This document shows, one piece after another, positions 6,564-47,393 of a DNA stretch of 64,000 nucleotides (position 1 is its first letter; each line of letters starts with the position of its first letter). A program made the translations under genes and the position numbers. Source of the DNA: an uncultured Calditrichaceae bacterium. GTDB lineage: Bacteria > Calditrichota > Calditrichia > RBG-13-44-9. The stretch is taken from positions 2,508 to 66,507 of the forward strand of contig CAYLYM010000005.1 in NCBI GenBank assembly GCA_964387645.1, in the 5' to 3' direction. The notes beneath the pieces are model-generated. The model did no database searches and was not told the origin of the DNA. It saw only the letters and a program-made list of their open reading frames with translations.

Positions 6564-8483
6564 TCAATATTTCCAGATAAGTGAAATGCCTATCTCTTGA
6601 ACGTGGTTAGTATCAAAACTATTAAGACCAGATCCAATCGAGATTAAGTCTGGATAATATCGATATAGATATTTGATATCAAGTTGTAAAATTTCTTTAA
6701 TTTTCCAGCGGAGCAACATCAGCCATTTTTGCCCCCTATGATTTAGCAAAGATGTTCGAAAAGTTCCAGGTAGATCAGGTTCATATTCGAATATTCTTAA
6801 ATTATAATCAGGAATGTCAAAGTTTGTCCAACGACTTAATATTTGACAATTTTTTTTAAATTGTATTTCTATCTGATGATAAATTCCGGTTCCATAAAAT
6901 TTATCTACTCCTTGCAGAGGATATGCCCATCGAATATCAAGCGAATTTTGAAATTTAATTTTGGAACTCAACTTGGAGTAATAAACCAGCCGAAGAGATC
7001 GAATTGATTTTTCAAGTACAGCAACATTTTCGAGATCATTTTTACGATATCGCTGATGAAATTGTAATCTAATCGTTTGTCCAGAGAATCTTTTGCGAAT
7101 TTCTACATGGTAATCTTTATATAAAAACGGCTCGATTTGGCTATTATATAGGTCACGGTATAGATGGACATACCCAGATATATTTGTTTTTCTATGAAGA
7201 TTATAATTAATTAGCAAAGCGATACCTGTTTTATTAATTGGGATATCACTAAGTGTTCCAAAGGCCCTCCCATAGAGAGCAAAATATTGTGGGTGGTAAT
7301 AATAAGTAACAATTTCATATTTCATTTTTTTTCCGAATAAATAGAGGAAATTCTGAAAAGCTGGGAATTTAGACTGGAAAAAACTCACCTCAGAGGTAAT
7401 TCGTATGCTTTTTGTATTCCATGAACCTGCAATGCCAATATGATGTTGTTTCTTACTAAATTCTTTATAAGGTTTATCGAAATTTGATACTATGGCATTT
7501 AATTGGAGATGCAGAGGGCCACTTCGAAAGGACAAGAGTGCTCCTGACAGTATGGATTTCCATAACCCTTTTTTTTGTCTTTCGTTTGATGTTCGGTGCA
7601 GACCCGAAGAATAAATGTTTCGAATTCGGCTACTATCTTTAGAAAGCGTAACATCCAAGTGTCGAGTAGAGTAGAATAAATAAAATTGGGTTTTAGTTGA
7701 TAATATCTTTGAGATTGTGACTCCTCGCAAAAAACTAAATTCATTGCTCGATCGGTTTTCAAATTCTGGTATGTTGAATCCATTTGAGAAAGGCATAACA
7801 GAAGCTGTTAAAGGTAATCCATATGCCGACCATAGCATTAGGCCACATCCGATCCGCATTTGATAATCGCCAATTAAAAGGGAAAAATTGTGATTTAAAT
7901 TTTGGTATTTGAAATGGTAGGTCTGATAATCGAAATAATCTTTTTCTCCATTATCTTTTTCTACCAGAAAGCCCCCAGAGAAAGAAGAATTGCTATTAAA
8001 TAATAAACGATGTTGCCAGTAAAATGGCTTTGAAAAAACATGTTCGTAAAATCCTCGCCGTTTAGGAAATTCCTTGCGAAGGCGAAAGCGATAAATAACA
8101 TGTCCCTTCTTAGAAATGGGTTTTACGGTTACAAAAGGAATAAGGGCTTCATAAAGTTCTTCAGTCATACCTTGAATTGAAAGTAATTCTGTAATATGAT
8201 TAAATCCGTTATGTAAAGAACGAAAATCTATTATTTCTTGAGCGACATGGTTGGGGACAAAAGGGATGCGTTTAAAATCTTCGAGAGTAGCTTTGTTTAA
8301 ATCAAGAGGATTTTCCATTAATTCCCAGAGGTATTCGACCAATTCGAAGTTCTCACCTTCTTCATCTTCAATTTGTTCTAAAATTGTTTCTAAGAATTGA
8401 TTTTCTTGTGCAAATGTCCATTGGAAATGAAAAAGCAAGTTCCAGAGCAGAGTCACACAAAGGATAAAACATATTTTTCTCAT
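6564..8483 (-). CDS. predicted outer-membrane beta-barrel protein with N-terminal ComEA-like helix-hairpin-helix DNA-binding domain
   Basis: Signal peptide MRKICFILCVTLLWNLLF…AQ. Residues ~55-120 (LDLNKATLEDFKRIPFVPNHVAQEIIDFR…IQGMTEELYEALIPFVTV) match the ComEA HhH pattern. The remaining ~500 aa are beta-rich with alternating hydrophobics and end in …LIWKY (aromatic C-terminus). Confidence 0.5.
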   Translation of the reverse strand: MRKICFILCVTLLWNLLFHFQWTFAQENQFLETILEQIEDEEGENFELVEYLWELMENPLDLNKATLEDFKRIPFVPNHVAQEIIDFRSLHNGFNHITELLSIQGMTEELYEALIPFVTVKPISKKGHVIYRFRLRKEFPKRRGFYEHVFSKPFYWQHRLLFNSNSSFSGGFLVEKDNGEKDYFDYQTYHFKYQNLNHNFSLLIGDYQMRIGCGLMLWSAYGLPLTASVMPFSNGFNIPEFENRSSNEFSFLRGVTISKILSTKTQFYLFYSTRHLDVTLSKDSSRIRNIYSSGLHRTSNERQKKGLWKSILSGALLSFRSGPLHLQLNAIVSNFDKPYKEFSKKQHHIGIAGSWNTKSIRITSEVSFFQSKFPAFQNFLYLFGKKMKYEIVTYYYHPQYFALYGRAFGTLSDIPINKTGIALLINYNLHRKTNISGYVHLYRDLYNSQIEPFLYKDYHVEIRKRFSGQTIRLQFHQRYRKNDLENVAVLEKSIRSLRLVYYSKLSSKIKFQNSLDIRWAYPLQGVDKFYGTGIYHQIEIQFKKNCQILSRWTNFDIPDYNLRIFEYEPDLPGTFRTSLLNHRGQKWLMLLRWKIKEILQLDIKYLYRYYPDLISIGSGLNSFDTNHVQEIGISLIWKY

Positions 8484-11469: not shown

Positions 11470-11958
11470 TTAGAAACCCATTTTTTTCAAGAGAGCTTCT
11501 TTAACTGCTGTTGGCACGAAGTTGGTAATATCTCCACCAAATCGGCAGACTTCTTTAACAATGGAGGAATTAAGATAAGTATACTTTTCGTGTGGCATCA
11601 TAAAGACTGTAGTAATTTCATCTGCCAATCTGCGATTCATTAAGGCCATTTGGAGTTCATATTCAAAATCCGATACCGCACGTAATCCTCTAATAATGGC
11701 ACAAGCTTTTTTTTCTTTTGCAAATTTTACTAAAAGACCATCAAATCCTTCTACTTTAACATGATCATGAATAGATCTTTCTTGAAGAGCTTTTTTTATT
11801 AGCTCAATTCTTTCATGGATTGAAAATAATGGACTTTTTAACGGATTAATTGCCACTGTGACACAAATTTCATCAAAAAGTTTTAGGGCTCTTTCAATAA
11901 TGTCTATATGCCCATTTGTGATGGGATCAAAGCTTCCAGGGTAAATAGCCCTCCTCAT
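11470..11958 (-). CDS. coaD: phosphopantetheine adenylyltransferase
   Basis: MRRAIYPGSFDPITNGHIDII (HxGH nucleotidyltransferase motif). Start ATG 11956-11958 overlaps the rsmD stop (ATGA). Upstream extension of the listed ORF rejected. Confidence 0.85.
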   Translation of the reverse strand: MRRAIYPGSFDPITNGHIDIIERALKLFDEICVTVAINPLKSPLFSIHERIELIKKALQERSIHDHVKVEGFDGLLVKFAKEKKACAIIRGLRAVSDFEYELQMALMNRRLADEITTVFMMPHEKYTYLNSSIVKEVCRFGGDITNFVPTAVKEALLKKMGF

Positions 11959-12506
11959 CCCTCCTCCTTTCTGCCAAAGAAGGTAATAATACTGCGATCG
12001 AATTTCTTCTGGCGTAATACTTCGTAAACGTTTGTTTCCCACTCTATATAATGATTTCTTTCGCTCTCGAGAACTAATATACCATATTCAGATAGATTTT
12101 CTGGAAGAAAGGAAAGAGGTAATAATTCAATATATCGATCCCATTTAAATGGTGGGTCTGCAAAAATTAAATCGAAAGGTTTTTTATTTTGACGCAAAAA
12201 AGATAAAACATTTTTTTTGATTATATTGTAAGGCTCACGAACTTGAATACGATTTAAATTTCTTCTCAGCACTTTTATTGAATTAAAAGAGTTATCTACA
12301 AATGTAACGCTATGTGCTCCCCTGCTTAAAGCTTCAATTCCAAGACTACCTGATCCAGAAAACAAATCTAATACCCGGCAATCTTCAACAAAATCACCCA
12401 ATATTTCAAAAATATATTCCTTGACACGATCTGTTGTGGGACGTATAGATTGATCGTTTGTAGAATATAAATGTTGACCTTTATACTTTCCGGAAATCAC
12501 TCGCAT
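11955..12506 (-). CDS. rsmD: 16S rRNA (guanine966-N2)-methyltransferase
   Basis: LDLFSGSGSLGIEALSRGA (SAM motif I) and FADPPF (motif IV); conserved rsmD-coaD gene pair. Confidence 0.8.
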   Translation of the reverse strand: MRVISGKYKGQHLYSTNDQSIRPTTDRVKEYIFEILGDFVEDCRVLDLFSGSGSLGIEALSRGAHSVTFVDNSFNSIKVLRRNLNRIQVREPYNIIKKNVLSFLRQNKKPFDLIFADPPFKWDRYIELLPLSFLPENLSEYGILVLESERNHYIEWETNVYEVLRQKKFDRSIITFFGRKEEG

Positions 12507-12524: not shown

Positions 12525-13622
12525 CTATTTGGCGCTATAATAAGTAAAGATTAACCGTGTTGAAAGATTATTATCTGTAATTATCTCTAAATTATATGGA
12601 TATATGGAAAATTTATTAATTTTTATCATTGGAAAAGATTCAACCAAATTACCAATAAAGTTCAAAAGATTTTCTTTCCGCCCATTCAAATATGCATAAT
12701 AAACTGTTTCGCTATAAGTAATGCGATTGGTTATATTTCCTTTTTTGAAATATTGTATTTGAACTCCATATTTTTTCGCCACACTTTGGAACTCATTTGC
12801 AATATTTTTAGTGGTTAGTGCTTTTATTTCAGAAACAGGTTTGGGAGCAACGGTTTTAGGTGGATTCACTCTGGCGCTAAGATCAGCATAAATTTTTTTA
12901 TTTGATTTAGGTTGTACGGCAATAATTCTAAAACCAAAACTTGGGAAAGCTTTTTTCAAATCCATATGAAACCTGGCAATTTGGTCTCGAGAATCTGCCA
13001 GGATAGTTAAATTGATATCAGTTGGTGTCATCACAATGAGAGAAAAATCTGCAGAGCCAGGTTTTTGATTTATAAAGTTTTGTAAATTATTTTTTAAAAA
13101 TCTGTTACTATTTAGGTTTTGCTGATAGATTGGTAATAAAACAACTTCTTTAGATTTGATTGTCTGAGTTTCACTTAGTTGAGTTGACAAAGGCTGTTTG
13201 GGTAATTCTTTTGTTGTAGCAACTTCTTCTCCACTTTTCGTTAACTGGTAAACAATGAAAATAATGAGGAGAAGTAATAAAACAATACTTCCAAATATGA
13301 AAAAAGGTTTTTTTACACTTAGCGTTGACTTAAATATGTTGAATTCATCCTCCTGCACGGCATAAGTGCCTCTTTGCAATGTTTCCTCTTCCTCAGTCTC
13401 GGGTTGTTCTTCTTCAATTAAAAAAGATTCATTACTATCTTTAGCTTCGGTCTGAGGTTCAGCCTTATCAAAAAACGATTCTGTAGATGTAAAAGAAAGG
13501 TCTATATTTTCTTTGCGTTCAGGTAGTTTTTTGCTTACAAATGGCTCTTCTTCCAGTTTTTCTGTTTTAGATGTATCTATCAAAGTTAAAGGATTGGCGG
13601 TTTTTAAATTAATTTTAGCCAT
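12525..13622 (-). CDS. bitopic membrane protein, PilN/PilO-like candidate
   Basis: ~120-aa acidic low-complexity N-terminus, one TM helix (FFIFGSIVLLLLLIIFIVY), ~230-aa periplasmic domain. Positioned after a PilM-like gene. Confidence 0.3.
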   Translation of the reverse strand: MAKINLKTANPLTLIDTSKTEKLEEEPFVSKKLPERKENIDLSFTSTESFFDKAEPQTEAKDSNESFLIEEEQPETEEEETLQRGTYAVQEDEFNIFKSTLSVKKPFFIFGSIVLLLLLIIFIVYQLTKSGEEVATTKELPKQPLSTQLSETQTIKSKEVVLLPIYQQNLNSNRFLKNNLQNFINQKPGSADFSLIVMTPTDINLTILADSRDQIARFHMDLKKAFPSFGFRIIAVQPKSNKKIYADLSARVNPPKTVAPKPVSEIKALTTKNIANEFQSVAKKYGVQIQYFKKGNITNRITYSETVYYAYLNGRKENLLNFIGNLVESFPMIKINKFSIYPYNLEIITDNNLSTRLIFTYYSAK

Positions 13623-13647
13623 GAAAGTTTACCCTCTCTTTCTTGCG

Positions 13648-14586
13648 TTAGAAAATATTCGAGATGGGTTCAACAAATTGAAAAATGTTTTCAGCAGAAA
13701 GAAGAGCATCTTGAATTTTTAACTGAAACGCAGAATTTGTATCAACATTGAATAATTTTATCGGTAATTGGACCTGGGCCTGAATTATATCTAACCATTC
13801 AGCTTTAAAATGATAACCATAAAAGACTATTGTTTTAATATTGAAAAGAGATCGATCTAAAACTGGTGGCGATTGAATTTCATCTAATAGTAAATCAAAT
13901 GAGGATAAAAGATATTCTTCATCGATTTGTTCAATGGTATTCAGGTCAGTATTATATGGTTTAAAATCGTAGTGGATAAATTGTTCTGGAGTGGAAATTA
14001 TAATATCATAGCCTCTTCGTTGCCAGCCTATAATAAGAGTTTGTCCCTTTGCATCTGGATATAATTGCCGATACAATTCATCGACAGTGAAACACGAGGG
14101 TGTTAGGACATCAAGTTCCAATCCAGAAAACTCAGCAATATCCTGAAAATATTGAATTACTTTTTTTCTAACAGCCAGAATTAAAATTTCTGTCAACCCT
14201 TCACTGGCTTCAACTTTTTCTAATTGATAGATTTGGTAATTTTCAGAAGGTTCTTCCCAAATTTTTTCTAGTTCAAAAAAAATAAATTCATTATAATTTT
14301 CTGAAGAAATTGTAGAATCTAAAGCTATCTTTTTGATCAGAGAAAATTTGCTTGGGAATGTAAAGCGAACTTTTTCTTTCGAGAAACTATTTTGTTCGAT
14401 AAGGGTTACCAGTTTTTTAGATATTTGGTTAATCGATTCGGTCTGGTTTAAGCTTTTGTGATCTATGATCAAGGGCAGTGAATCACTCACTGCCCTTCTT
14501 ATTACTATATTACTTTCATCTAAAATCACATCTGCCCATTGTACAAAGTCTTCATGGAAGGAAACACTATTGATCTGTTTATTCAT
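13648..14586 (-). CDS. PilM-like actin-fold pilus assembly protein candidate
   Basis: Loose pattern match to PilM (…FIFFELEKIWEEP… vs PilM AVRWEAERYIPF; GLELDVLTPSCF vs GLVPVVLDVKPF); 312 aa. From memory. Confidence 0.35.
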   Translation of the reverse strand: MNKQINSVSFHEDFVQWADVILDESNIVIRRAVSDSLPLIIDHKSLNQTESINQISKKLVTLIEQNSFSKEKVRFTFPSKFSLIKKIALDSTISSENYNEFIFFELEKIWEEPSENYQIYQLEKVEASEGLTEILILAVRKKVIQYFQDIAEFSGLELDVLTPSCFTVDELYRQLYPDAKGQTLIIGWQRRGYDIIISTPEQFIHYDFKPYNTDLNTIEQIDEEYLLSSFDLLLDEIQSPPVLDRSLFNIKTIVFYGYHFKAEWLDIIQAQVQLPIKLFNVDTNSAFQLKIQDALLSAENIFQFVEPISNIF

Positions 14587-14598
14587 AAAACCTCTTTA

Positions 14599-16290
14599 TT
14601 ATTGTTCCCAACTTTTTTCTCCATTCACGATGGAACCATGGTTGATATGTTTTTTGGTAAATATAAGATAAATTGGTTCTTCTACTCCTTCCAAAGCTTT
14701 TAGTAAATCTTGTTCAAGTTTATGGCCAGCTTCTGTTAATGCCTGAGCAAAAGCCTGATCGAAACTGGATTTTATTTGAGAAACAATTTCTAAAGCCGGT
14801 GCAAAGGTTTCAGAATGCGAAATGATTCTCCTTCTGGTAGAAGCAGGCAAACGTGTTACCGTGATCATTGAATCTAATTGTTTAAGTTTTTTATTAAAAT
14901 AATTTATCTGGTCTTCTAAATCTTTAATGTTTCCTGTTTTTATTCGAGTTGCCAGTGTATCAATTGGGTTCAATATATCTTCAATCATGGGTTTAAGGAC
15001 TGATAATTTATTTTCAGTTTCAAGAGTCTTTACGAAATTCTGGTAATCATGCGAGTATTTATAAAAAAAGACGTTACTAAGGTCGCGCATTTCTGCTTGT
15101 AGCTCTTTCAAGCTCAACAAGATGTCAGTTTTTCTTCTTATGAAGACACGGTTTTTTTCCATTACTTCTTTGGTTTGTGCAATGATAGTATCAAGTTGAT
15201 TTAACTTATCGATATAAGGAAGATCTTTTACCGGCTCGATGTCTGCTATAAACTTTTGCTGAAATTCAGAAAGCAAATTAGGACATTCCACGGTTATCTT
15301 ATTACTATCGATACTAATAATGTAAGGCTCCTGACAGTCTGGACAGGAAAAATTTTCTTCGGTAAAATTAATAAGCAAGGAATCGACCTCACTTAAAGCA
15401 GTTAATCCATATTTTTTTGATATCATAAAATATTCTGGTGAAAGAAACTTCTCATGGAGAGCGGCCATATTTTCTCGTTCGCTCTGTAACTGATTTTGAT
15501 CTAAAGATAAATCAGTGTTATTTAAGGTATTTACGCTAGTATTTATTCTATCAATAAATTTTTTCAATCGATCATGTACACTAGAAACCTTAACAATATC
15601 TGTTTTACGAATAGCATCGATTAAACTATTAATTTTTTTGTATTCTGCATTCCAATAGTCTGTAAAATCCGATTTTTCGTATTGAGGGAAGTATACCAGA
15701 ATTGAATCGACATAGTTCAATGCATGGAGAACACTATTCTGGAGTGAGTAGTCAGATACTTTTTCCTTCATAGACCTAAGAGAATCCACAAATAATTTTA
15801 CACGGCTAAAATTTGGGAATGTAGCACTCGAATCCATTTGCATTATTTCATGGTTAATCTCCTTGCTCAAAGAAGCCACGTTTTCGTATTTACGGAAATA
15901 ACGTTCATTTCCAATCAGGTCTCCGGTAATTTCAAATGCGGCTTGTGAAATAGTGGAAATTTGCTCAATACTAGGGATAGAAAGAATATTGTCAACCACT
16001 TGAATGAAACTTCGAGTGAGTGAAACGATTGACTGACGCTGTTGAAGTCCTGAATCATTTTGAACAAATGTTAAAAGCTTAGAAAGCGTGTCGGTGTAAG
16101 ATTCTGTTGCACGATAAAAGAAACGTTCGGCTTCATAAATGGTGGTTAAATTATTTCGACACGCTTTAGTAACCTTTTCCTCTTTTTCCCAGATTTTGTT
16201 GGGAATTATTATAACTGCAATCAATAGCAGTGAAACGAGAACAATTAGAATTTCGAGAATAATAGAACCTTTCGGACGTTGAGCAGCCAT
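14599..16290 (-). CDS. large protein with type IV prepilin-like N-terminus (giant pilin/pseudopilin candidate)
   Basis: MAAQRPKG|SIILEILIVLVSLLLIAVIIIPN: basic leader, Gly at -1, Glu at +5, ~20 hydrophobic residues then IP, as in class III signal peptides. CPDCQ…ECPN cysteine pair mid-protein. Confidence 0.5.
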   Translation of the reverse strand: MAAQRPKGSIILEILIVLVSLLLIAVIIIPNKIWEKEEKVTKACRNNLTTIYEAERFFYRATESYTDTLSKLLTFVQNDSGLQQRQSIVSLTRSFIQVVDNILSIPSIEQISTISQAAFEITGDLIGNERYFRKYENVASLSKEINHEIMQMDSSATFPNFSRVKLFVDSLRSMKEKVSDYSLQNSVLHALNYVDSILVYFPQYEKSDFTDYWNAEYKKINSLIDAIRKTDIVKVSSVHDRLKKFIDRINTSVNTLNNTDLSLDQNQLQSERENMAALHEKFLSPEYFMISKKYGLTALSEVDSLLINFTEENFSCPDCQEPYIISIDSNKITVECPNLLSEFQQKFIADIEPVKDLPYIDKLNQLDTIIAQTKEVMEKNRVFIRRKTDILLSLKELQAEMRDLSNVFFYKYSHDYQNFVKTLETENKLSVLKPMIEDILNPIDTLATRIKTGNIKDLEDQINYFNKKLKQLDSMITVTRLPASTRRRIISHSETFAPALEIVSQIKSSFDQAFAQALTEAGHKLEQDLLKALEGVEEPIYLIFTKKHINHGSIVNGEKSWEQ

Positions 16291-16569
16291 TATTCCTCCG
16301 TCGATTTATTGCTTTATTCATTATGATTTATTAACTTAACTTATAAAGCACCTCATAAATATGCTAAAATGATGAAAAGTTTAATAAAATAACTATAAAA
16401 TGTCAATTAATTTTTGAAAATAAGATTTACAAAAATCCTTTTATTTTTTAAAGTTGTGAGCATTTTTTAAAAACTCTTATAATAAAGAATTTAAAGAAAA
16501 TACAAAAAGTAATTTCATTGAAATATTTTACAATTGCAATATTTATTACATTAAATTTTTTATACTCAG

Positions 16570-16605
16570 TTATCAGTTATAATCAAGTTATCAGTTATAA
16601 TCAAG
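16570..16605. repeat. perfect tandem direct repeat 2 x 18 bp (ttatcagttataatcaag) in the divergent intergenic region
   Basis: Read directly at 16570-16587 and 16588-16605; lies between the pilin-like operon start (16290, minus) and mtnA (16721, plus). Confidence 0.7.
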
Positions 16606-16720
16606 TGTCTATTTTATGAATATATCATAATATATCATGATTATGAATAAAAAATAAAAATATTTTGGAAAATGGATTATCAAATTTTAAATTTTTTAAT
16701 TTCAAAAAGTGGATCGGATT

Positions 16721-33731: not shown

Positions 33732-34760
33732 ATGAGTGTATTAAGTGACAAAGAGAAATTAGTACTTGAAGCAATTGTAAAATTTTTCATTCTAAATGCT
33801 AACCCGGTTGCATCGAATTATGTAGCCAGACATAGTGCTTTAGCATTTAGTCCTGCTACAATTCGGAATATAATGTACAGCCTTGAAGAAAAAGGGTATA
33901 TTTATCAACCTCATACTTCGGCTGGACGGGTGCCTACTACTCGTGGGTATAGGTTTTATGTTGACCACATGATGCGGAGGGCGAGGTTATCTACCGGTCA
34001 GAAAGAAACGATTAAAAAAGCAGTGTTTCAGAATCCCGGAGACTTCGAAACGGTTCTAAAAGAAGCTTCTAGAATACTGGCTCATTTATCTCAACAACTT
34101 AGCGTAATTATATCGCCCGAGTTTGATGAAGGTGTTTTTCACAGAATGGATATTACTCGTTTAAGTAGCGAACGGCTGTTACTTATCCTTTCGATAAAGA
34201 GTGGTATGGTCAAAACAATTCTTTTGGAAGTTTCATCATATCTTCGGGATGAACATTTGAATTCTCTTTGCAACATTTTAAACGAGCGTTTACATGGTTT
34301 AAAGGTTCGGGAAATTCGTGCGAAATTTCGTGAAATTGTTCAGGATATCGCTGATGACAAGAGTGGTTTAATCCCGCTTTTTAGTAAAGCAGCTCATAAA
34401 ATATTCGATTTCTCTGGCGAGAACGAAGTATTTCTCACAGGAACCCATAATATTTTGAGACAACCAGAGTTTGCCAATAGTATTAAGGTGTCTAGTGTTG
34501 TTGAGTTATTAGAAGATAAAAACCTCGTTATTCATCTTTTAGATGATGATATACCAGACCAGAAGTTAAGTATTAAGATCGGAGAGGAGATCAGAGAGAA
34601 GAAGATGAAAAATTGCAGTATTATTTCTGCACGGTATCGGATTGGGAATATGTCTGGGACGCTTGGAGTTATTGGTCCAATACGCATGGATTACAGTTAT
34701 TTAGTTCCCTTAGTAGATTTTACAGCCAATTTCCTTTCCGATTCGCTCGGTGAGAATTAA
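33732..34760 (+). CDS. hrcA: heat-inducible transcription repressor HrcA
   Basis: N-terminal winged HTH (…SPATIRNIMYSLEEKGYIYQPHTSAGRVPTTRGYRFYVD…); 342 aa. Confidence 0.8.
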   Translation: MSVLSDKEKLVLEAIVKFFILNANPVASNYVARHSALAFSPATIRNIMYSLEEKGYIYQPHTSAGRVPTTRGYRFYVDHMMRRARLSTGQKETIKKAVFQNPGDFETVLKEASRILAHLSQQLSVIISPEFDEGVFHRMDITRLSSERLLLILSIKSGMVKTILLEVSSYLRDEHLNSLCNILNERLHGLKVREIRAKFREIVQDIADDKSGLIPLFSKAAHKIFDFSGENEVFLTGTHNILRQPEFANSIKVSSVVELLEDKNLVIHLLDDDIPDQKLSIKIGEEIREKKMKNCSIISARYRIGNMSGTLGVIGPIRMDYSYLVPLVDFTANFLSDSLGEN

Positions 34761-34856
34761 TACTTTTGAAAAAAAAATTTTATCTGATCTGCCGTGACTG
34801 AATAAGAAAAAGACAGAGAAGGAAAGTCTGATATTTTTATCTAAAGAGAAAGGTAA

Positions 34857-36044
<1,188 letters not shown>

Positions 36045-36212: not shown

Positions 36213-36573
36213 ATGTCACCTTCATCTGTTGAAATCTGTAAGGAAACAATCGTGCATATGGATTTAGTGGAAAAAGTCAAAAAAAGTTTACCTGGAAATG
36301 ATAAAATTCAGGCATTAGTATATACTTTTAAGATATTAGGCGATCCAACGCGATTATGAATTGTTTTGGCCCTGGCCAGGGGGAAATTATGTGTGTGATA
36401 TTGCCACATTAGTAAATTTGTCTGTTTCTGCCGTCTCACATCAACTTCGTCTGTTACGAAGTATGAAGCTGGTTAAATTCATAAAAGAGGGGAATATGGT
36501 TCATTATTCTTTGGATGATGAACATATCGAGAAAATTATTGGTGAGGCACAAAATCACGTAAGAGAAAAGTAA
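36213..36573 (+). pseudogene. ArsR/SmtB-family regulator carrying a nonsense codon and a 2-bp deletion
   Basis: MSPSS…ILGDPTRL, then TGA (36357-36359) where Arg is expected. The same frame continues IVLALARGKLCV. The (TG)4 run at 36390-36397 is 2 nt short of what is needed for …CVCDIA, shifting to the frame of the listed ORF 36361..36573 (…VCDIATLVNLSVSAVSHQLRLLR…). Confidence 0.6.
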
Positions 36574-36910: not shown

Positions 36911-37357
36911 ATGAGAGGGCCATATCGGAAAAGAATGATATTGCAGCCGCCGCAATTTAAAAATTTTAAACCTGGGGGAATACCAAGTCGGTTTTTAAAA
37001 TCCATTATTCTTACAGTGGATGAATATGAAGCAATACGACTGGCCGATCATCTTGGTCTTGAACACCAGGAAGCAGCAGAGCGAATGAAGATATCAAGAC
37101 CGACTTTTACCCGATTAATTGAACAAGCAAGGCAAAAAGTTGCCACAGCATTGGTAGAAGGAATGGAATTAATAATTGAAGGAGGTAATATATATTTTAT
37201 CAATACGTTAAGTCATTGTAAAGATTGTGGTGAAACTATTCCTCAACCATTTACTGAGGAAATTGATCAGTGTCCTGATTGTGGTTCAGAAAATGTTGAA
37301 AATTTAGCCTGGCAGTTTATAGGAAGAGGAAGAAAAGGTTATAGAAGGGGACGTTAA
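36911..37357 (+). CDS. DUF134 (UPF0251) predicted DNA-binding protein with C-terminal CxxC…CxxC zinc ribbon and RG-rich tail
   Basis: …LTVDEYEAIRLADHLGLEHQEAAERMKISRPTFTRLIEQARQKVA… (sigma-70 region-4-like HTH typical of DUF134); CKDCG…CPDCG; GRGRKGYRRGR tail. Confidence 0.65.
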   Translation: MRGPYRKRMILQPPQFKNFKPGGIPSRFLKSIILTVDEYEAIRLADHLGLEHQEAAERMKISRPTFTRLIEQARQKVATALVEGMELIIEGGNIYFINTLSHCKDCGETIPQPFTEEIDQCPDCGSENVENLAWQFIGRGRKGYRRGR

Positions 37358-37358
37358 G

Positions 37359-38216
37359 ATGAAAATCGCTGTTGCAAGTGGAAAAGGAGGAACGGGTAAA
37401 ACATTAGTAGCAACAAACTTTGCCTATTTTGTTTCTAAAGAGAATCCTGTAACGCTTTATGACCTGGATGTAGAGGAGCCTAATGCCGCTCTATTTTTCG
37501 ATGCTGAAAAGAAAGAAGTTAAATCCGTTCAAGTAATGATCCCCGTTGTGAATGAGAAAAAATGTGATCATTGTGGAGTTTGTAGCCGAATTTGCGAATA
37601 CCATGCAATTATAAACTTAGGAAATCAGGTTATGGTTTTTCCAGAATTATGCCATAGCTGTTATGGGTGTTTAGAATTATGTCCTCAAGGAGCTATTAGT
37701 GAGGGTAAAAAAGAAATTGGTACTATTCATACTGCAAAACATAATAATATAGAAATTGTTACAGGTGTTTTAAAAATTAGTGAATCTGCTACTCCAAAAT
37801 TAATTCGTGAGACAAAAAAAGAATTGTCAGATAAAAATTCAATTGAAATTTATGATTCACCACCTGGAACATCTTGTCCTGTAATAGAAGTAGTAAAAGA
37901 TGTAGATTATGTTTTAATAGTTGGTGAGCCGACTCCGTTTGGTTTGCATGATTTAGACTTATTGATGCGGGTTATAGAACAATTAAAAATACCATTTGGT
38001 GTATTAATTAATAAAGCCGATGAGCAGAATAACCTTATTAAACAGTATTGTATAGAAAAAAACGTAGAAATTATTGGGGAAATTCCTATGCGCCACGATA
38101 TAGCGTGTACTTATGCCAAAGGTAAGTTAATTATAGATGAAATTGATGATATGAGTTCACTATTCGAATCAATTTGGGATAAAATAATGCAAAAAGTTAA
38201 CGAGGCAGCTTTATGA
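37359..38216 (+). CDS. MinD/ParA-superfamily P-loop ATPase with inserted 2x[4Fe-4S] ferredoxin domain (COG1149-type)
   Basis: Deviant Walker A SGKGGTGKT; CDHCGVCSRIC…CHSCYGCLELC cysteine motifs. Confidence 0.75.
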   Translation: MKIAVASGKGGTGKTLVATNFAYFVSKENPVTLYDLDVEEPNAALFFDAEKKEVKSVQVMIPVVNEKKCDHCGVCSRICEYHAIINLGNQVMVFPELCHSCYGCLELCPQGAISEGKKEIGTIHTAKHNNIEIVTGVLKISESATPKLIRETKKELSDKNSIEIYDSPPGTSCPVIEVVKDVDYVLIVGEPTPFGLHDLDLLMRVIEQLKIPFGVLINKADEQNNLIKQYCIEKNVEIIGEIPMRHDIACTYAKGKLIIDEIDDMSSLFESIWDKIMQKVNEAAL

Positions 38217-39094
38217 AGGAAATTTTGCTTATAAGTGGGAAAGGTGGAACTGGCAAGACATCGATTTCTGCTGCACTGGGAGCGTTAGCCGGAAATAAAG
38301 CTGTTGTTGCCGACTGTGATGTGGATGCAGCCAATTTACATCTGCTTTATGAACCAGAAATAACTCGAGAAGAGAACTTTTATAGTGGTAAGGAACCAGT
38401 AATAGACCACAACTTGTGTACAAAATGTGGTTTATGTAAGGAAAAATGTCGATTTGATGCCATTTATCTGGAGGATGGACAATATAAAATTGATGAAGTG
38501 AGTTGTGAGGGGTGCTCGTTGTGTTTTCACATTTGTCCTATAGATGCTATTCGAATGGAAAAGAATTTGGCTGGAAAGTGGTATTGCGCAAAATCGCGTT
38601 TTGGGAATGATTTTTTATTTGCTCATTTGGGCATAGGTAAAGAAAATTCAGGGAAATTAGTAACAAAAGTCAAGCAAGAAGCTAAGCAGTTAGCTGATCA
38701 AAGGGGTATTTCATTTATTTTTGTGGATGGACCTCCGGGAATAGGTTGTCCAGTAATTTCGTCTTTAAGCAATGTTGATGTTGTTTTAATTGTAACAGAA
38801 GCAACACAATCAGGTTTGCATGATTTAGCAAGGTTGGTAGAATTAATAGAATATTTCAATCTTAAAGCTTTTTGTGTTATTAATAAAAGTGATTTAAATG
38901 AAGAAGTAACCAGAGAAATAAAAGAATTTTGTACAGACCATAATATTCAAATTATTACTGAAATACCATTTCATCCTGTGTTTTATGAAACTTTGCAAGA
39001 AGGGAAAACAGTAATTGAGAGTCAAAATTCAGAAATAATTGACAAAATAAGAAAAATTTTTAACGAGATGACAAAAGAGGAGAATGTGAAATGA
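38213..39094 (+). CDS. second COG1149-type MinD-like ATPase with ferredoxin domain (paralog)
   Basis: SGKGGTGKT; CTKCGLCKEKC…CEGCSLCFHIC. ATGA overlap with the upstream paralog. Confidence 0.75.
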   Translation: MKEILLISGKGGTGKTSISAALGALAGNKAVVADCDVDAANLHLLYEPEITREENFYSGKEPVIDHNLCTKCGLCKEKCRFDAIYLEDGQYKIDEVSCEGCSLCFHICPIDAIRMEKNLAGKWYCAKSRFGNDFLFAHLGIGKENSGKLVTKVKQEAKQLADQRGISFIFVDGPPGIGCPVISSLSNVDVVLIVTEATQSGLHDLARLVELIEYFNLKAFCVINKSDLNEEVTREIKEFCTDHNIQIITEIPFHPVFYETLQEGKTVIESQNSEIIDKIRKIFNEMTKEENVK

Positions 39095-39432
39095 AAGTTG
39101 CCATTACCACGCAAGCAGAAGGATGGGATGCAAAAATTGATCCTAGATTTGGTCGGGCGCGAGGATTTTGGATTATTGATACCGACACTGGGGAAGCTGA
39201 ATTTATAGACAACAATGAAAATTTTGAAGCTGCACATGGTGCTGGAACAAGCTCTGCGCAGAAAATGATCGAAAATAAAGTTAATGTATTGATTTCTGGA
39301 TCAGTTGGTCCAAAAGCAGGATCGGTACTCAAAGCAGCTGGGATTAAGATATATTTAACAAATGAAAATTTGACTGTTCGAGAAGCTTTTGATCGTTTTA
39401 AGAATAATAAATTAACTGAGATGTTAAATTAA
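39091..39432 (+). CDS. NifX/NifB-like (dinitrogenase FeMo-cofactor biosynthesis family) small cofactor-binding protein
   Basis: MKVAITTQAEGWDAKIDPRFGRARGFWIID…VNVLISGSVGPKA…GIKIY, the typical DUF/COG1433 pattern. ATGA overlap with the upstream gene. Confidence 0.65.
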   Translation: MKVAITTQAEGWDAKIDPRFGRARGFWIIDTDTGEAEFIDNNENFEAAHGAGTSSAQKMIENKVNVLISGSVGPKAGSVLKAAGIKIYLTNENLTVREAFDRFKNNKLTEMLN

Positions 39433-39449
39433 AAAAAGGAGGTGTCATC

Positions 39450-39824
39450 ATGCCAGGTGGTGATCGTACAGGACCTTTAGGTTTTGGTCCACTTACAGGA
39501 AGAGGTTTGGGTTATTGTGCGGGATATAATCATCCCGGTTATTATGTTCCTCCCGGTTGGGGCAGAGGTTTTGGTCGCGGCTGGGGTTGGGGTAGAGGAC
39601 GTGGATTTGGTTTTGGCCGAGGATTCTGGCGCTGGGGATGGCGTTGGACTGCTCCCATTCTTCCCGAACAATTAGACAAAATGCCGCCCGAATATCTGGT
39701 TGGATTAAAAGAAGAGTTACGCGGATTACGAACTACTGTTGATGATATGCTGCAAAGAATTGAAAATATGGAAAAAACCAGGGATAGCCATCAGGGTAAA
39801 GGTGAAACTACTGGTGGGGAATGA
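39450..39824 (+). CDS. DUF5320-like protein with Trp/Arg/Gly-rich low-complexity core
   Basis: N-terminus MPGGDRTGPLGFGPLTGRGLGYCAGY (the DUF5320 hallmark as I recall it); core GWGRGFGRGWGWGRGRGFGFGRGFWRWGWRW; C-terminal predicted helix. GGAGG RBS. Confidence 0.55.
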   Translation: MPGGDRTGPLGFGPLTGRGLGYCAGYNHPGYYVPPGWGRGFGRGWGWGRGRGFGFGRGFWRWGWRWTAPILPEQLDKMPPEYLVGLKEELRGLRTTVDDMLQRIENMEKTRDSHQGKGETTGGE

Positions 39825-39875
39825 TGTGAATTAATTAAAAAACTTTTAAAATTTGAGTAAAATGGAGGCTTAAAA

Positions 39876-46943: not shown

Positions 46944-47393
46944 ATGTACCTCACAAAAGCTCAACTGAAAGCGCTATGGTTTCTTATCTCAGTTTTAGCT
47001 ATATCGGTTTTGATCCGTTATTTACAGGTATATTTCATGGAGCAAAAAGTAGAGAGTTTTAGCCAGTTTGATAGTCTATTTTTACAATACCGGGATAGTA
47101 TCCAGGCGGCTTATCATGCTAAAAAAAATGATGACTTAAACTACTTAGGGAATGACGAATCTGAAAGTCAAGTAAAACAAACCATCTCAATGGTTCAGTT
47201 CCCAATCAATATCAATGTTGCAGATAAGGAACAATTACAGGCGTTGCCGAGGATTGGCCCTAAAATGGCTGAGCGTATTCTTCTATATCGTCACGAAAAG
47301 GGATCTTTTAAAACAAAGGAAGAATTAATGAATGTGAAGGGTATTGGACCAAAAACGTTTGAAAAACTAAAAAATTTAATTACTGTTGAATAA
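46944..47393 (+). CDS. comEA: ComEA-like helix-hairpin-helix DNA-binding protein (membrane-anchored)
   Basis: N-terminal TM helix; INVADKEQLQALPRIGPKMAERIL…VKGIGPKTFEKLKNLITV. Confidence 0.65.
   Translation: MYLTKAQLKALWFLISVLAISVLIRYLQVYFMEQKVESFSQFDSLFLQYRDSIQAAYHAKKNDDLNYLGNDESESQVKQTISMVQFPININVADKEQLQALPRIGPKMAERILLYRHEKGSFKTKEELMNVKGIGPKTFEKLKNLITVE

What the first reader, a model, noticed from the sequence alone, without database searches (positions are those of the whole stretch)
12525..16290. Operon encoding a 563-aa protein with a canonical type IV prepilin N-terminus plus PilM- and PilN/O-like partners
The first gene product begins MAAQRPKG|SIILEILIVLVSLLLIAVIIIPN. This is a basic leader with Gly at -1, Glu at +5 and a 20-residue hydrophobic helix, the class III (prepilin peptidase) signal. 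It continues for 530 more residues, including a CPDCQ…ECPN cysteine pair. It is followed by a PilM-like actin-fold protein and a bitopic protein with a ~120-aa acidic disordered cytoplasmic N-terminus. No pilB, pilC or pilD (ATPase, platform, prepilin peptidase) lies adjacent. This looks like either a giant minor pilin or pseudopilin with its own alignment subcomplex, or a non-canonical surface or secretion filament. The window also encodes two ComEA-type DNA-binding proteins at 6564 and 46944, so a DNA-uptake pilus is one possible function.
Basis: partly seen in the sequence, partly recalled or inferred. Interest (0 to 1): 0.55.

Follow-up and report, generated by a model that had tools for sequence, protein, structure and literature searches.

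The report
Orphan pilin-like module with PilM/PilNO partners
A tightly packed operon conserved across Calditrichia bacteria encodes a pilin-fold protein enlarged by two big helical insertions, together with its own PilM-like and PilN/PilO-like membrane partners; no curated protein family covers this offshoot of type IV pilus machinery, and in sister lineages it almost always sits directly after the DNA-uptake gene comEA.

Summary
Three minus-strand genes (14599-16290, 13648-14586, 12525-13622) are 12 and 25 bp apart and run into rsmD-coaD.

**Protein X (563 aa)**
- Its N-terminus is in exact pilin register: Gly-1, Ser+1, Glu+5, Pro+22.
- Gly-1, Ser+1 and Pro+22 are invariant in 69 homologues.
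- A profile of its shortest relatives hits only pilins and pseudopilins in the PDB (best E 1e-6).
- X is a roughly 150-aa pilin-like core carrying two helical insertions of about 227 and 195 aa.

**Partners**
- The 312-aa protein is a PilM homologue (profile E 2e-18) that seems to lack nucleotide-binding motifs.

**Context**
- No pilus ATPase, platform, peptidase or secretin lies in the window.
- X-M-N-rsmD-coaD is conserved in 20 Calditrichia-type loci.
- In KSB1 and unnamed lineages, comEA sits directly upstream of X in 26 loci.

**Interpretation**
- Most likely X is a single-copy cap or stalk pseudopilin on a dedicated PilM-PilN/O platform, probably working with ComEA in DNA uptake.
- Function is inferred. 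No curated family covers X or N.

The parts
14599..16290 (-). Gene X: 563-aa pilin-fold protein (whole gene, stop codon included).
   Evidence: ORF. 91 homologues of constant length (about 565 aa), those that carry an organism name being Calditrichia/Calditrichota or KSB1 MAGs apart from one partial sequence labelled as an archaeon. AF2 model has pLDDT 92.5 and pTM 0.75.
16267..16290 (-). Leader MAAQRPKG: a short basic leader ending in Gly(-1), the putative prepilin-peptidase cleavage site G8|S9.
   Evidence: Gly-1 and Ser+1 are 69/69, and Lys/Arg at -2 is 56/69. Translation verified. Cleavage itself is inferred, not shown.
16042..16290 (-). N-terminal pilin-like module, aa 1-83. It holds the hydrophobic alpha1-N with Glu+5 and Pro+22, within a predicted 53-residue helix (aa 10-62).
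   Evidence: hhalign against the 146-187-aa family covers 83 columns at E 2.5e-30. That family's profile hits PilA, GspG and geopilin chains.
15361..16041 (-). Insertion 1, aa 84-310: a helical-bundle region at the position of the pilin alpha-beta loop.
   Evidence: All-helical in the AF2 model. Absent from the 146-187-aa relatives.
15268..15360 (-). Core beta-hairpin, aa 311-341 (FSCPDCQEPYIISIDSNKITVECPN), containing C316 and C336.
   Evidence: Strands 324-328 and 331-335. Matches positions 6-35 of the C-terminal HMM built from the minimal family.
14683..15267 (-). Insertion 2, aa 342-536: a second helical region inserted inside the core beta-sheet.
   Evidence: The C-terminal HMM of the minimal family matches X in two pieces, 314-341 and 537-562. 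The region is helical.
14599..14682 (-). C-terminal core strands, aa 537-563, carrying the near-invariant motif K-K-H-I-N-H-G-x-I-x-x-G-x-K-S-W-E.
   Evidence: Strands 536-540, 544-548 and 553-555. In the 22-sequence alignment H548, N550, G552, K559, S560, W561 and E562 are invariant; in the 69-sequence alignment G552 and E562 stay invariant and the others are at least 90% conserved. The motif is shared by all length classes.
13648..14586 (-). Gene M: 312-aa PilM-like cytoplasmic actin-fold protein, probably without nucleotide binding.
   Evidence: PilM_2 E 1.2e-4 and TIGR01175 E 1.2e-5, both below their cutoffs. The family profile hits M. xanthus PilM (3jc8) at E 2.3e-18 and P. aeruginosa PilM at 3.5e-5, with no FtsA hit. 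The PilM 'VTIGGNQFT' stretch has no counterpart in the family, and no conserved Asp/Gly motif appears in the family alignment.
12525..13622 (-). Gene N: 365-aa bitopic PilN/PilO-like protein (whole gene).
13602..13622 (-). N-terminal peptide MAKINLK: the only conserved cytoplasmic element of N, and the presumed docking peptide for the PilM-like protein.
   Evidence: M1 and N5 are invariant. The pattern M-x-[KRD]-[ILVF]-N-[LFYM] holds in every lineage examined. Binding to M is inferred.
13311..13601 (-). Acidic, disordered cytoplasmic linker of N, aa 8-104.
   Evidence: pLDDT below 50. pI 4.4 with 25 D+E against 13 K+R. Length varies from about 25 aa (L023) to more than 100 aa between lineages.
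13236..13310 (-). Transmembrane helix of N, aa 105-129.
   Evidence: Helix 105-129. Sequence verified.
12525..13172 (-). Periplasmic part of N: a long helix (151-185) followed by two tandem beta-beta-alpha-beta-beta / alpha-beta-beta-alpha-beta-beta domains (192-251 and 274-364).
   Evidence: Secondary structure with pLDDT above 90. PilO/PilN/GspL/GspM fold matches. Sequence similarity between the two domains is not significant.
11955..12506 (-). rsmD (16S rRNA m2G966 methyltransferase). It starts 18 bp after N and follows N in all 21 Calditrichia-type loci that extend far enough.
   Evidence: TIGR00095 scores 155.6 bits against a cutoff of 117.5. Synteny.
11470..11958 (-). coaD (pantetheine-phosphate adenylyltransferase). 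The likely start is M29 of the listed ORF, which overlaps the rsmD stop codon.
   Evidence: TIGR01510 scores 205.9 bits against a cutoff of 103.3, matching aa 31-187 of the long ORF. Translation. Synteny.
16291..16708 (.). AT-rich 418-bp spacer between X and the divergent mtnA-like gene. It holds the Shine-Dalgarno sequence of X and an 18-bp tandem repeat (16560-16606).
   Evidence: Sequence and SD. Tandem repeat (2.7 copies, 93% match). Promoter-like sites occur only at chance frequency.
46944..47393 (+). ComEA (149 aa). It is not in the operon here, but its orthologue is the gene directly upstream of X in sister lineages.
   Evidence: TIGR00426 scores 58.9 bits against a cutoff of 53.1. DnaJ-ComEA-X-M order is seen in 26 loci.

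Best explanation
**What it is (about 0.9 confidence).** This is a conserved chromosomal operon encoding a diverged, 'orphan' piece of type IV filament machinery with three parts.
- X is a pilin-fold protein. Its roughly 150-aa core (alpha1 plus a small disulfide-bearing beta-sheet) has been expanded by two helical-bundle insertions of 227 and 195 aa.
- M is a PilM homologue that appears to have lost its nucleotide-binding motifs.
- N is a single bitopic protein that combines a PilN-type N-terminal docking peptide with two tandem PilN/PilO-fold periplasmic domains.

**How it most likely works (inferred, about 0.5 confidence).**
- X is inserted N-in/C-out into the inner membrane.
- Its 8-residue basic leader is removed at G8|S9 by a prepilin peptidase encoded elsewhere.
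- M clamps the MAKINL peptide of N on the cytoplasmic side.
- The periplasmic PilN/PilO-like domains of N form the platform that holds X.
- X is too bulky to sit in the body of a filament, and its +5 residue is not fixed. It therefore acts as a single-copy pseudopilin: either a cap or primer of a short pseudopilus built by pilus ATPase and platform proteins encoded elsewhere, or a non-extending stalk.
- The ancestral gene order is dnaJ-comEA-X-M-N-rsmD-coaD. The most likely job is therefore periplasmic DNA capture and uptake together with ComEA.
For: **Shown by tool results**
- Pilin register and conservation: G-1, S+1 and P+22 are invariant.
- Only pilins and pseudopilins are hit by the minimal-family profile.
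- The N-terminal 83 columns are shared with the 146-187-aa relatives at E 2.5e-30.
- The C-terminal core matches X as a split pair, 314-341 plus 537-562.
- The AF2 model has a 53-residue first helix and five short strands (pLDDT 92.5).
- C44 and C336 covary, which argues for an extracytoplasmic globular part.
- M hits PilM at E 2.3e-18.
- The M-x-K/D-I-N-L start of N is present in every lineage.
- Gene spacing of 12, 25 and 18 bp indicates an operon.
- X-M-N-rsmD-coaD is found in 20 Calditrichia-type loci plus the window. ComEA lies directly upstream of X in 26 loci of KSB1/Zhuqueibacterota and unnamed lineages.

**From papers**
- ComZ (a beta-solenoid inserted into the pilin sheet, with Gly at position 5) and GspK (an alpha domain inserted between strands) are tip pilins, argued on steric grounds. 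ComZ binds DNA (PMC6561018).
- The type species Caldithrix abyssi carries a 'Pili IV cluster' elsewhere in its genome (PMC5317091).
Against: - Glu5 is replaced by Lys, Arg or Gly in 15/69 homologues of the 565-aa family. In the 146-187-aa family it is replaced by Lys in 9/18 and by Asp in 1/18.
- I know of no Lys5 pilin that assembles.
- Orthologues P0122, P0128 and P0131 lack the leader and Gly-1 altogether, and at least P0128 still sits in front of an M gene. Processing is therefore not universally needed.
- No other minor pilins are co-encoded, unlike GspHIJK or the PilA1-3/ComZ locus.
- M seems to lack nucleotide-binding motifs.
- One lineage has ComEA-X-M but no N.
- X is acidic overall (pI 5.6), with no obvious basic region.
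- In Calditrichia itself, comEA is not adjacent to the operon.
- The operon sits among housekeeping genes.
- Whole-model fold searches did not retrieve pilins.
- The presence of PilD, PilB, PilC and PilQ in this particular genome could not be checked.
Confidence: 0.5

Rival explanations
1. Repurposed static scaffold. M, N and X form a fixed inner-membrane and periplasmic ring or cage that has nothing to do with a filament or with DNA. It could, for example, surround or stabilise another envelope machine such as the flagellar motor, division apparatus or outer-membrane biogenesis. In this reading X is just a permanently anchored periplasmic helical strut that descends from a pilin.
For: - H. 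pylori has no type IV pili, yet it keeps a pilM-pilN-pilO operon whose products form the flagellar motor cage (PMC10823254).
- Caldithrix abyssi has a full flagellar gene set (PMC5317091).
- No ATPase, platform, peptidase or secretin lies nearby.
- Lys5 variants and leaderless orthologues exist.
- M lacks nucleotide motifs.
- The context is housekeeping and looks constitutive: rsmD, coaD, pta, dnaJ and ftsEX.
- The helical insertions are well conserved within Calditrichia rather than hypervariable.
Against: - Gly-1 and Ser+1 are invariant and a basic -2 residue is present in 56/69 of the 69 sequences. That is hard to explain if the leader is never cut.
- The near-obligatory ComEA neighbour in 26 loci points to DNA rather than to flagella.
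- No flagellar or division gene is consistently adjacent, apart from ftsEX several genes away.
Confidence: 0.25
2. Tip pseudopilin of a type II secretion-like system. X would be a GspK analogue that caps a secretion pseudopilus. M plus N would be the GspL/GspM equivalents, and the ATPase, platform and secretin would be encoded elsewhere.
For: - GspG is among the best N-terminal matches.
- GspK is a pilin fold with an inserted alpha-helical domain (PMC6561018).
Against: - M and N are separate proteins with a PilN-type peptide, as in type IVa pili, not a GspL fusion.
- No GspH/I/J-like genes are present.
- The neighbour is ComEA, not a secretion substrate.
Confidence: 0.1
3. X is the major subunit of a new, thick surface filament: a non-canonical pilus made of 563-aa pilins.
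For: - X has a class III-like signal with Glu5 and Pro22 in the window protein.
- It is the only pilin-like gene in the operon.
- Length classes vary widely, from 146 to 672 aa. This could reflect a surface-exposed decoration.
Against: - Glu5 is not conserved, and leaderless orthologues exist.
- About 420 residues of rigid helical insertion would clash in a pilin helix-bundle core. This is the same steric argument made for ComZ (PMC6561018).
- No assembly ATPase is co-encoded.
Confidence: 0.05
4. There is no real relation to pili. X would be an ordinary Sec signal-anchor protein whose N-terminus resembles a prepilin by chance, and the M and N similarities would be spurious.
For: - No pilin, PilM, PilN or PilO model reaches its curated cutoff for any of the three proteins.
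- Whole-model fold searches of X return only generic helical bundles.
Against: Three independent lines agree on one machine:
- The pilin-only PDB hits with correct residue register.
- PilM at E 2.3e-18.

In addition, the three genes are adjacent in 20 Calditrichia-type loci, and the X-M pair is kept in more than 40 loci.
Confidence: 0.02

Closest known systems
ComZ of Thermus thermophilus (competence-associated tip pilin) and the T2SS tip pseudopilin GspK
   Same: - Both are pilin folds enlarged by a domain inserted into or next to the beta-sheet.
- Both have an atypical position 5: Gly in ComZ, and variable in X.
- Both are too bulky for the filament body, so they are placed at the tip.
- ComZ is dedicated to DNA uptake (PMC6561018).
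- X likewise has its second insertion inside the core sheet and is linked to comEA in sister lineages.
   Different: - X has two insertions, both all-helical. ComZ has one beta-solenoid and GspK has one alpha domain.
- X shows no detectable sequence similarity to ComZ or GspK beyond alpha1.
- X is not encoded with other minor pilins. It is encoded with its own PilM and PilN/O homologues.
- X has a conserved C-terminal HxNHG...KSWE motif and a C44-C336 cysteine pair that I have not seen described.
PilM-PilN-PilO assembly (alignment) subcomplex of type IVa pili (P. aeruginosa, M. xanthus, T. thermophilus)
   Same: - A cytoplasmic actin-fold PilM homologue.
- A bitopic partner with a conserved extreme N-terminal peptide, one TM helix, a long periplasmic helix and ferredoxin-like alpha-beta-beta repeats.
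- PilM binds the N-terminus of PilN in the canonical system (PMC6916266; PMC13039148).
   Different: - One gene carries two tandem PilN/PilO-fold domains, instead of separate pilN and pilO genes.
- A 97-aa acidic disordered linker lies between the peptide and the TM helix.
- M seems to lack nucleotide-binding motifs.
- No pilP or pilQ follows.
- None of the proteins reaches the Pfam or NCBIfam cutoffs.
Akkermansia muciniphila Amuc_1098-Amuc_1102 'pili-like' cluster
   Same: - NF045709 (Amuc_1101 family) weakly matches M at E 0.002.
- The function of that cluster is also unresolved (PMC5332112).
   Different: - The Akkermansia cluster includes a secretin (Amuc_1098) and is reported as outer-membrane or surface associated.
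- The window operon has no secretin.
- M scores 17 bits against a cutoff of 650, so it is not a member of that family.
Orphan PilM-PilN-PilO operon of Helicobacter pylori (flagellar motor cage)
   Same: - It is a PilMNO-type set encoded without pilus ATPase, platform or secretin, next to housekeeping genes.
- It shows that such modules can work outside a pilus (PMC10823254).
   Different: - No pilin-like gene accompanies the H. pylori operon, and PilN and PilO are separate proteins there.
- No ComEA link is reported.

Membership tests
Type IV pilin / pseudopilin (class III signal peptide proteins) | Short, positively charged leader ending in Gly(-1), directly followed by a hydrophobic helix of about 20 residues. 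| tested here: met
   The leader is MAAQRPKG|SIILEILIVLVSLLLIAVIII. Gly-1 is 69/69 and Lys/Arg at -2 is 56/69.
Type IV pilin / pseudopilin (class III signal peptide proteins) | Glu at +5 of the mature protein. | tested here: inconclusive
   Glu is present in the window protein. In the 565-aa family the counts are E 54, K 13, R 1 and G 1. In the 146-187-aa family they are E 8, K 9 and D 1. Tip pilins such as ComZ also lack Glu5.
Type IV pilin / pseudopilin (class III signal peptide proteins) | Sequence homology of alpha1 to known pilins, in register (residue 1, Pro22). | tested here: met
   The minimal-family profile hits PilA 8tj2 at 1e-6, GspG 5wda at 1.6e-4, PilA 6xxd at 8e-4 and geopilin at 2e-3. 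Query position 11 aligns to pilin residue 3. Pro+22 is 69/69.
Type IV pilin / pseudopilin (class III signal peptide proteins) | Match to curated pilin models at or above their cutoffs (Pfam N_methyl; NCBIfam pilin equivalogs). | tested here: not met
   No Pfam pilin hit at E <= 10. NCBIfam PilA_Myxo scores 19 bits (cutoff 400), ComGC 18.8 (cutoff 75) and GspG 15.9 (cutoff 88.85).
Type IV pilin / pseudopilin (class III signal peptide proteins) | Globular domain in which an antiparallel beta-sheet packs on alpha1-C. | tested here: inconclusive
   [not shown]
Type IV pilin / pseudopilin (class III signal peptide proteins) | Cleavage and N-methylation by a prepilin peptidase, and incorporation into a filament. 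| not testable with these tools
   No Peptidase_A24 family was found in the window. A type IV pilus cluster is reported in Caldithrix abyssi (PMC5317091), but the genome of this window could not be searched.
PilM (type IVa pilus assembly, actin-like ATPase fold) | Sequence homology to PilM over most of its length. | tested here: met
   The family profile A4 hits M. xanthus PilM 3jc8 at E 2.3e-18 (positions 53-288) and P. aeruginosa PilM 5eox at 3.5e-5. No FtsA or MreB chain was hit at E <= 1.
PilM (type IVa pilus assembly, actin-like ATPase fold) | Score at or above the curated cutoff (PF11104 or TIGR01175). | tested here: not met
   21.6 bits against a cutoff of 27, and 24.5 bits against a cutoff of 133.
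PilM (type IVa pilus assembly, actin-like ATPase fold) | Nucleotide-binding motifs of the actin/Hsp70 fold. | tested here: inconclusive
   In the alignment to M. xanthus PilM, the 'VTIGGNQFT' stretch has no counterpart. No Asp/Gly-rich column is conserved in the 24-sequence family alignment. This was read from alignments only, without structure or binding data.
PilN / PilO (and GspL/GspM) periplasmic platform proteins | Bitopic N-in topology with a long periplasmic helix followed by a ferredoxin-like (alpha-beta-beta)x2 domain. | tested here: met
   [not shown]
PilN / PilO (and GspL/GspM) periplasmic platform proteins | Conserved extreme N-terminal peptide of PilN that binds PilM. The consensus is I-N-L-L-P, which I recall from Karuppiah & Derrick 2011; that paper is not held in the library. 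| tested here: inconclusive
   M-x-[KRD]-[ILVF]-N-[LFYM] is the only conserved cytoplasmic element of N in all lineages. The resemblance to the PilN motif rests on my memory. Short-peptide searches of PDB sequences found nothing. Binding was not tested.
PilN / PilO (and GspL/GspM) periplasmic platform proteins | Match to curated PilN or PilO sequence models. | tested here: not met
   No PilN or PilO family appears at E <= 10 in Pfam or NCBIfam. The family profile finds no PilN or PilO chain by sequence.
PilN / PilO (and GspL/GspM) periplasmic platform proteins | Two separate paralogous genes (pilN and pilO) whose products heterodimerise. | tested here: not met
   A single gene carries two tandem domains. 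No second such gene lies between M and rsmD in any locus. One lineage lacks N entirely.
Complete type IV pilus / T2SS / Com gene cluster | Co-encoded extension ATPase (PilB/GspE), platform protein (PilC/GspF), prepilin peptidase and, in diderms, a secretin. | tested here: not met
   None of these families occurs in the 43 window ORFs of 110 aa or more that were scanned. None occurs in the called genes within 10 kb of nine related loci.
Amuc_1101 family PilM-like pilus complex protein (NF045709) | Score at or above the equivalog cutoff. | tested here: not met
   17 bits against a cutoff of 650.

The most novel reading that the evidence does not exclude
ComEA, X, M and N together form a previously unrecognised, self-contained periplasmic DNA-capture device of FCB-group bacteria (Calditrichota, KSB1/Zhuqueibacterota and unnamed relatives).
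- X is not polymerised at all. It stands as a fixed, pilin-derived helical stalk.
- Its length is set by lineage-specific insertions, from 146 to 672 aa.
- It sits on a nucleotide-independent PilM-PilN/O ring.
- The device works without any dedicated pilus ATPase.
- The charged +5 residue (Glu or Lys) and the invariant C-terminal HxNHG...KSWE motif would be its own assembly contacts.
Probability: 0.15. Interest if true: 0.8.

Novelty: new variant of a known kind. Interest (0 to 1): 0.6.

Why it matters
- **An unfiled family.** X and N belong to no Pfam or NCBIfam family. Some source databases label X homologues 'ComGC' or 'hypothetical'.
- **A large, ordered family.** An exhaustive search gives 338 cluster representatives at E <= 0.001. 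They share the same N- and C-terminal core, and the middle ranges from nothing to about 500 residues.
- **A locked gene order.** The order dnaJ-comEA-X-M-N-rsmD-coaD is kept across phylum-level distances.
- **A natural experiment.** If the functional inference holds, this shows how a pilin fold is re-engineered by domain insertion. It would also be a candidate DNA-uptake component for large, mostly uncultured sediment phyla where competence has not been studied.
- **A test of what PilM-PilN-PilO proteins do.** The module would show whether they can act without an adjacent ATPase, which reviews flag as an open point in pilus biology (PMC6916266).
- **A tractable system.** Caldithrix abyssi is cultured and its genus carries the module (locus L010), so the predictions can be tested.

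Tried and rejected
- **Sequence detection of PilN/PilO in N.** A family profile against PDB sequences found only TM or low-complexity noise. Two short N-terminal peptide queries found nothing.
- **Internal duplication in N.** hhalign between the two periplasmic domains gave probability 5.6%, which is not significant. The tandem-domain statement therefore rests on predicted structure only.
- **FtsA or cell-division identity for M.** Rejected, because only PilM chains are hit.
- **Defence system or phage origin.** Rejected. PADLOC found nothing, and PHROGs gave only a weak spanin-like TM match for N.
- **Promoter and terminator scan of the operon.** Counts were at shuffle level and uninformative.
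- **ComEA downstream of dnaJ in the window, as in sister lineages.** Absent; that position holds a split ArsR-like ORF instead.
- **The 639-aa HHH_3 protein at 6564 as part of the system.** It is not conserved at that position in relative L001 and was left aside.
- **Broad alignments as queries for contig scans.** These failed. Narrower alignments worked.
- **Pilus genes elsewhere in this genome.** I could not test whether it encodes PilD, PilB, PilC, PilQ or ComEC.

Full report
**1. The observation**

The region holds three minus-strand ORFs: X (14599-16290, 563 aa), M (13648-14586, 312 aa) and N (12525-13622, 365 aa). The gaps between X, M, N and the next gene are 12, 25 and 18 bp. A GGAGG lies 5 nt upstream of the X start codon. 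The next two genes score above their curated cutoffs as rsmD (TIGR00095, 155.6 bits against 117.5) and coaD (TIGR01510), followed by pta. The upstream neighbour is a divergent IF-2B/MtnA-family gene.

**2. Protein X has a pilin-type N-terminus**

The sequence MAAQRPKG|SIILEILIVLVSLLLIAVIIIPN puts Gly at -1, Ser at +1, Glu at +5 and Pro at +22.

- Among 69 full-length homologues (36-62% identical), those that carry an organism name are Calditrichia/Calditrichota or KSB1 metagenome-assembled genomes (MAGs). All are about 565 aa long.
- Gly-1, Ser+1 and Pro+22 are invariant, and position -2 is Lys or Arg in 56.
- Position +5 is Glu in 54, Lys in 13, Arg in 1 and Gly in 1.
- The single sequence gives only sub-threshold hits to pilin models: PilA_Myxo 1e-3, ComGC 1e-3, GspG 0.01, and PDB PilA 0.03.
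- A profile of the shortest relatives finds pilins and pseudopilins as its five best PDB matches. These are M. xanthus PilA 1e-6, GspG 1.6e-4, Thermus PilA 8e-4 and geopilin 2e-3. The family's Ser+1 aligns with pilin residue 1.

Homology of the first roughly 70 residues to pilin alpha1 is therefore established. Membership in a curated pilin family is not.

**3. X is a small pilin-like core with two large insertions**

An exhaustive profile search returned 338 cluster representatives at E <= 0.001. Besides the 560-585-aa family, it recovered proteins of 146-187, 250-300, about 365 and 585-672 aa. All share two things:

- the N-terminal roughly 83 residues;
- a C-terminal block, CP..Y.I....I.I.CP ... 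F..K.I.NHG.I..GxKSWE.

The evidence for the insertion model is as follows.

- hhalign between the 565-aa and the 146-187-aa families aligns the first 83 columns at E 2.5e-30.
- An HMM of the 61-column C-terminal block matches X in two pieces, 314-341 and 537-562. The E-values there refer to a 69-sequence target set.
- The AlphaFold2 (AF2) model (pLDDT 92.5, pTM 0.75) shows a 53-residue first helix (10-62). It shows short strands only at 324-335 and 536-555, and helices everywhere else.

X is thus a roughly 150-aa core plus insertion 1 (aa 84-310, at the alpha-beta-loop position) and insertion 2 (aa 342-536, inside the sheet).

- Within Calditrichia the insertions contain many invariant residues. 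They are constrained rather than hypervariable.
- Between lineages they differ completely. The 585-672-aa forms, for example, are Trp/Lys/Glu-rich repeats.

The cysteines behave as follows.

- C44, C316 and C336 are all Cys in 45/69 sequences.
- C336 is Ser in 18, and in all 18 of those C44 is Ser too.

This covariation suggests a C44-C336 disulfide tying alpha1 to the sheet, and hence a periplasmic location. Both points are inference.

**4. Protein M**

- Pfam PilM_2 and TIGR01175 match weakly, at 1e-4 and 1e-5, both below cutoff.
- A 24-sequence family profile hits M. xanthus PilM at 2.3e-18 and P. aeruginosa PilM at 3.5e-5. Nothing else is hit at E <= 1.
- In that alignment the glycine-rich 'VTIGGNQFT' stretch of PilM has no counterpart. 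The family alignment has no conserved Asp/Gly motif.

M is therefore probably a nucleotide-free PilM derivative. This is inferred from alignments only.

**5. Protein N**

No sequence model recognises N. Its architecture is conserved over very low identity, with a mean of 30%.

- It has an invariant Met1 and Asn5 within M-x-[KRD]-[ILVF]-N-[LFYM]. Examples are MAKINL here, and MVDINL, MVRINL and MKDINL elsewhere.
- An acidic low-complexity linker follows. It spans aa 8-104 here, with pI 4.4 and pLDDT below 50. It is about 25 aa in one lineage.
- There is one TM helix (105-129) and a long helix (151-185).
- Two tandem alpha/beta domains (192-251 and 274-364) are modelled at pLDDT above 90.

The N-terminal peptide resembles the PilM-binding 'INLLP' start of PilN. 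I recall that consensus from the literature. The reviews I could read state only that PilM binds the PilN N-terminus. This is a lead, not a test.

**6. Context**

*Within the window.* No PilB/T, PilC, PilD or secretin family occurs in the window ORFs scanned. Nor do they occur within 10 kb of nine related loci.

- All 20 Calditrichia-type loci and the window show X-M-N-rsmD-coaD, with variable upstream genes.
- 26 loci from KSB1/Zhuqueibacterota and unnamed lineages show dnaJ-ComEA-X-M-(N)-rsmD-coaD.
- In those 26 loci ComEA lies directly upstream of X, and in L025 its end overlaps the X start.
- hrcA-grpE precedes dnaJ in the four of these loci whose called genes were read (L023-L026), and ftsEX precedes that in L023, L024 and L026.
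- These upstream genes reach the ComEA HhH cutoff.

*Exceptions.*

- One locus (L022) has dnaJ directly followed by X, with no ComEA.
- One lineage (X of 146 aa) has ComEA-X-M-rsmD with no N.
- Another (L028) has X-M-N-rsmD-coaD-pta with ftsEX-grpE-dnaJ a few genes downstream of pta and no ComEA next to dnaJ.

In the window, hrcA-dnaJ (33732-36044) and ComEA (46944-47393) are present but dispersed.

**7. How it most likely works**

*Shown:* three adjacent genes are each independently related to a different part of the type IVa pilus inner-membrane machinery. Their order is conserved, and there is an ancestral link to comEA.

*Inferred:*

- X is membrane-inserted through alpha1-N, and its leader is cut at G8|S9. 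The invariance of Gly-1 and Ser+1 argues for selection on a cleavage site.
- A type IV pilus cluster, and hence probably a prepilin peptidase, exists in Caldithrix abyssi (PMC5317091).
- M caps the N-terminal peptide of N.
- The two PilN/PilO-type domains of N replace the PilN-PilO heterodimer and hold X.

X carries about 420 residues of rigid helical insertions and a non-fixed +5 residue. It therefore should not fit into a filament body. The same steric argument places ComZ and GspK at filament tips, and ComZ has Gly5 and binds DNA (PMC6561018).

I therefore favour X as a single-copy cap, primer or fixed stalk working with ComEA in DNA capture.

- About 0.9 that the three homologies and the operon are real.
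- About 0.5 for the cap-or-stalk, ComEA-linked mechanism as a whole.

**8. Evidence against, and rivals**

The following weaken a dynamic-pilus reading:

- Lys5 variants and leaderless orthologues such as P0122, P0128 and P0131;
- the lack of other minor pilins;
- a probably nucleotide-free M;
- the N-less lineage;
- the acidic pI of X (5.6);
- the housekeeping setting.

The main rival is a static, repurposed scaffold (0.25). The precedent is the H. pylori orphan PilMNO operon, which builds the flagellar motor cage (PMC10823254). C. abyssi has flagellar genes. Against this rival stand the invariant cleavage-site residues and the ComEA neighbour.

The remaining rivals are less likely.

- A T2SS-type tip pseudopilin (0.1) is disfavoured, because PilO and PilM are better matches than GspM and GspL, and because M and N are separate proteins.
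- A major-pilin filament (0.05) is disfavoured on steric grounds and by Glu5 variability.
- Chance resemblance (0.02) is excluded.

**9. Comparison with known systems**

- It works most like a ComZ/GspK-type domain-inserted tip pseudopilin combined with a PilM-PilN-PilO platform.
- The Akkermansia Amuc_1098-1102 cluster is the nearest described gene cluster of similar composition, but it includes a secretin (PMC5332112).
- By curated thresholds it is not a member of any pilin, PilM, PilN, PilO or Amuc_1101 family.
- It lacks the ATPase, platform, peptidase and secretin that define a pilus, T2SS or Com cluster.

**10. Novelty and limits**

The parts are of a known kind. The following features are not covered by any family or paper I could find:

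- a pilin core with two helical insertions and its own C-terminal motif;
- the fused PilN/PilO-like protein with an acidic linker;
- the degenerate PilM;
- the orphan status of the module;
- the locked dnaJ-comEA-...-rsmD-coaD neighbourhood.

I classify it as a new variant of a known kind.

Limits:

- Function is inferred from homology, predicted structure and synteny only.
- The N model rests on 17 sequences.
- I could not view model coordinates.
- I could not run complex prediction.
- I could not search the rest of this genome.

Noticed in passing
window 6564-8483 (-): A 639-aa protein has a ComEA-like HHH_3 domain at aa 59-119 (Pfam 48 bits; ComEA TIGR00426 only 21 bits, below its cutoff of 53). 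About 500 further residues match no family. It lies on the same strand about 4 kb downstream of the operon, but is not conserved at that position in relative L001.
   Followed up: partly
window 16560-16606: An 18-bp unit (TTATAATCAAGTTATCAG) is repeated 2.7 times at 93% match. It lies in the AT-rich spacer between gene X and the divergent mtnA-like gene and could be an operator site.
   Followed up: no
window 36213-36573 (+): An ArsR-type HTH reading frame is split into two ORFs (48 and 70 aa) just after dnaJ, probably a frameshifted pseudogene. It sits where sister lineages carry comEA.
   Followed up: no
L033, L041, L043, L045, L046 (e.g. L041 4523-6850): This lineage has the order ComEA, X (146 aa), M (292 aa), rsmD, with no N gene. 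Its ComEA has an extra N-terminal stretch '..KKINDxIGL..' before the TM helix that other ComEAs lack. That stretch might substitute for the M-x-D-I-N-L docking peptide of N.
   Followed up: partly
window X residue 13, and alignments A2 and A6: Position +5 of the pilin-like helix is almost always charged, but it switches between Glu and Lys across lineages. The counts are E 54 / K 13 / R 1 / G 1 in the 565-aa family, and E 8 / K 9 / D 1 in the minimal family. I know of no Lys5 pilin.
   Followed up: partly
window 33732-36044 (+): hrcA and dnaJ are adjacent with no grpE between them. Related lineages have hrcA-grpE-dnaJ-comEA-X, so the Calditrichia arrangement looks like a broken-up version of an ancestral supercluster.
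   Followed up: partly
window 36911-40250 (+): A compact cluster holds DUF134, two MinD/ParA-like ATPases with 4Fe-4S domains, two Nitro_FeMo-Co (NifX/NifB-like) proteins and DUF5320. It is unrelated to the finding.
   Followed up: no
proteins P0182, P0194, P0201 (loci L025, L044): The 585-672-aa X homologues of other lineages fill the insertion with Trp/Lys/Glu-rich helical repeats (26-32 Trp). This is entirely different from the Calditrichia insertions, although the N- and C-terminal cores are the same.
   Followed up: partly
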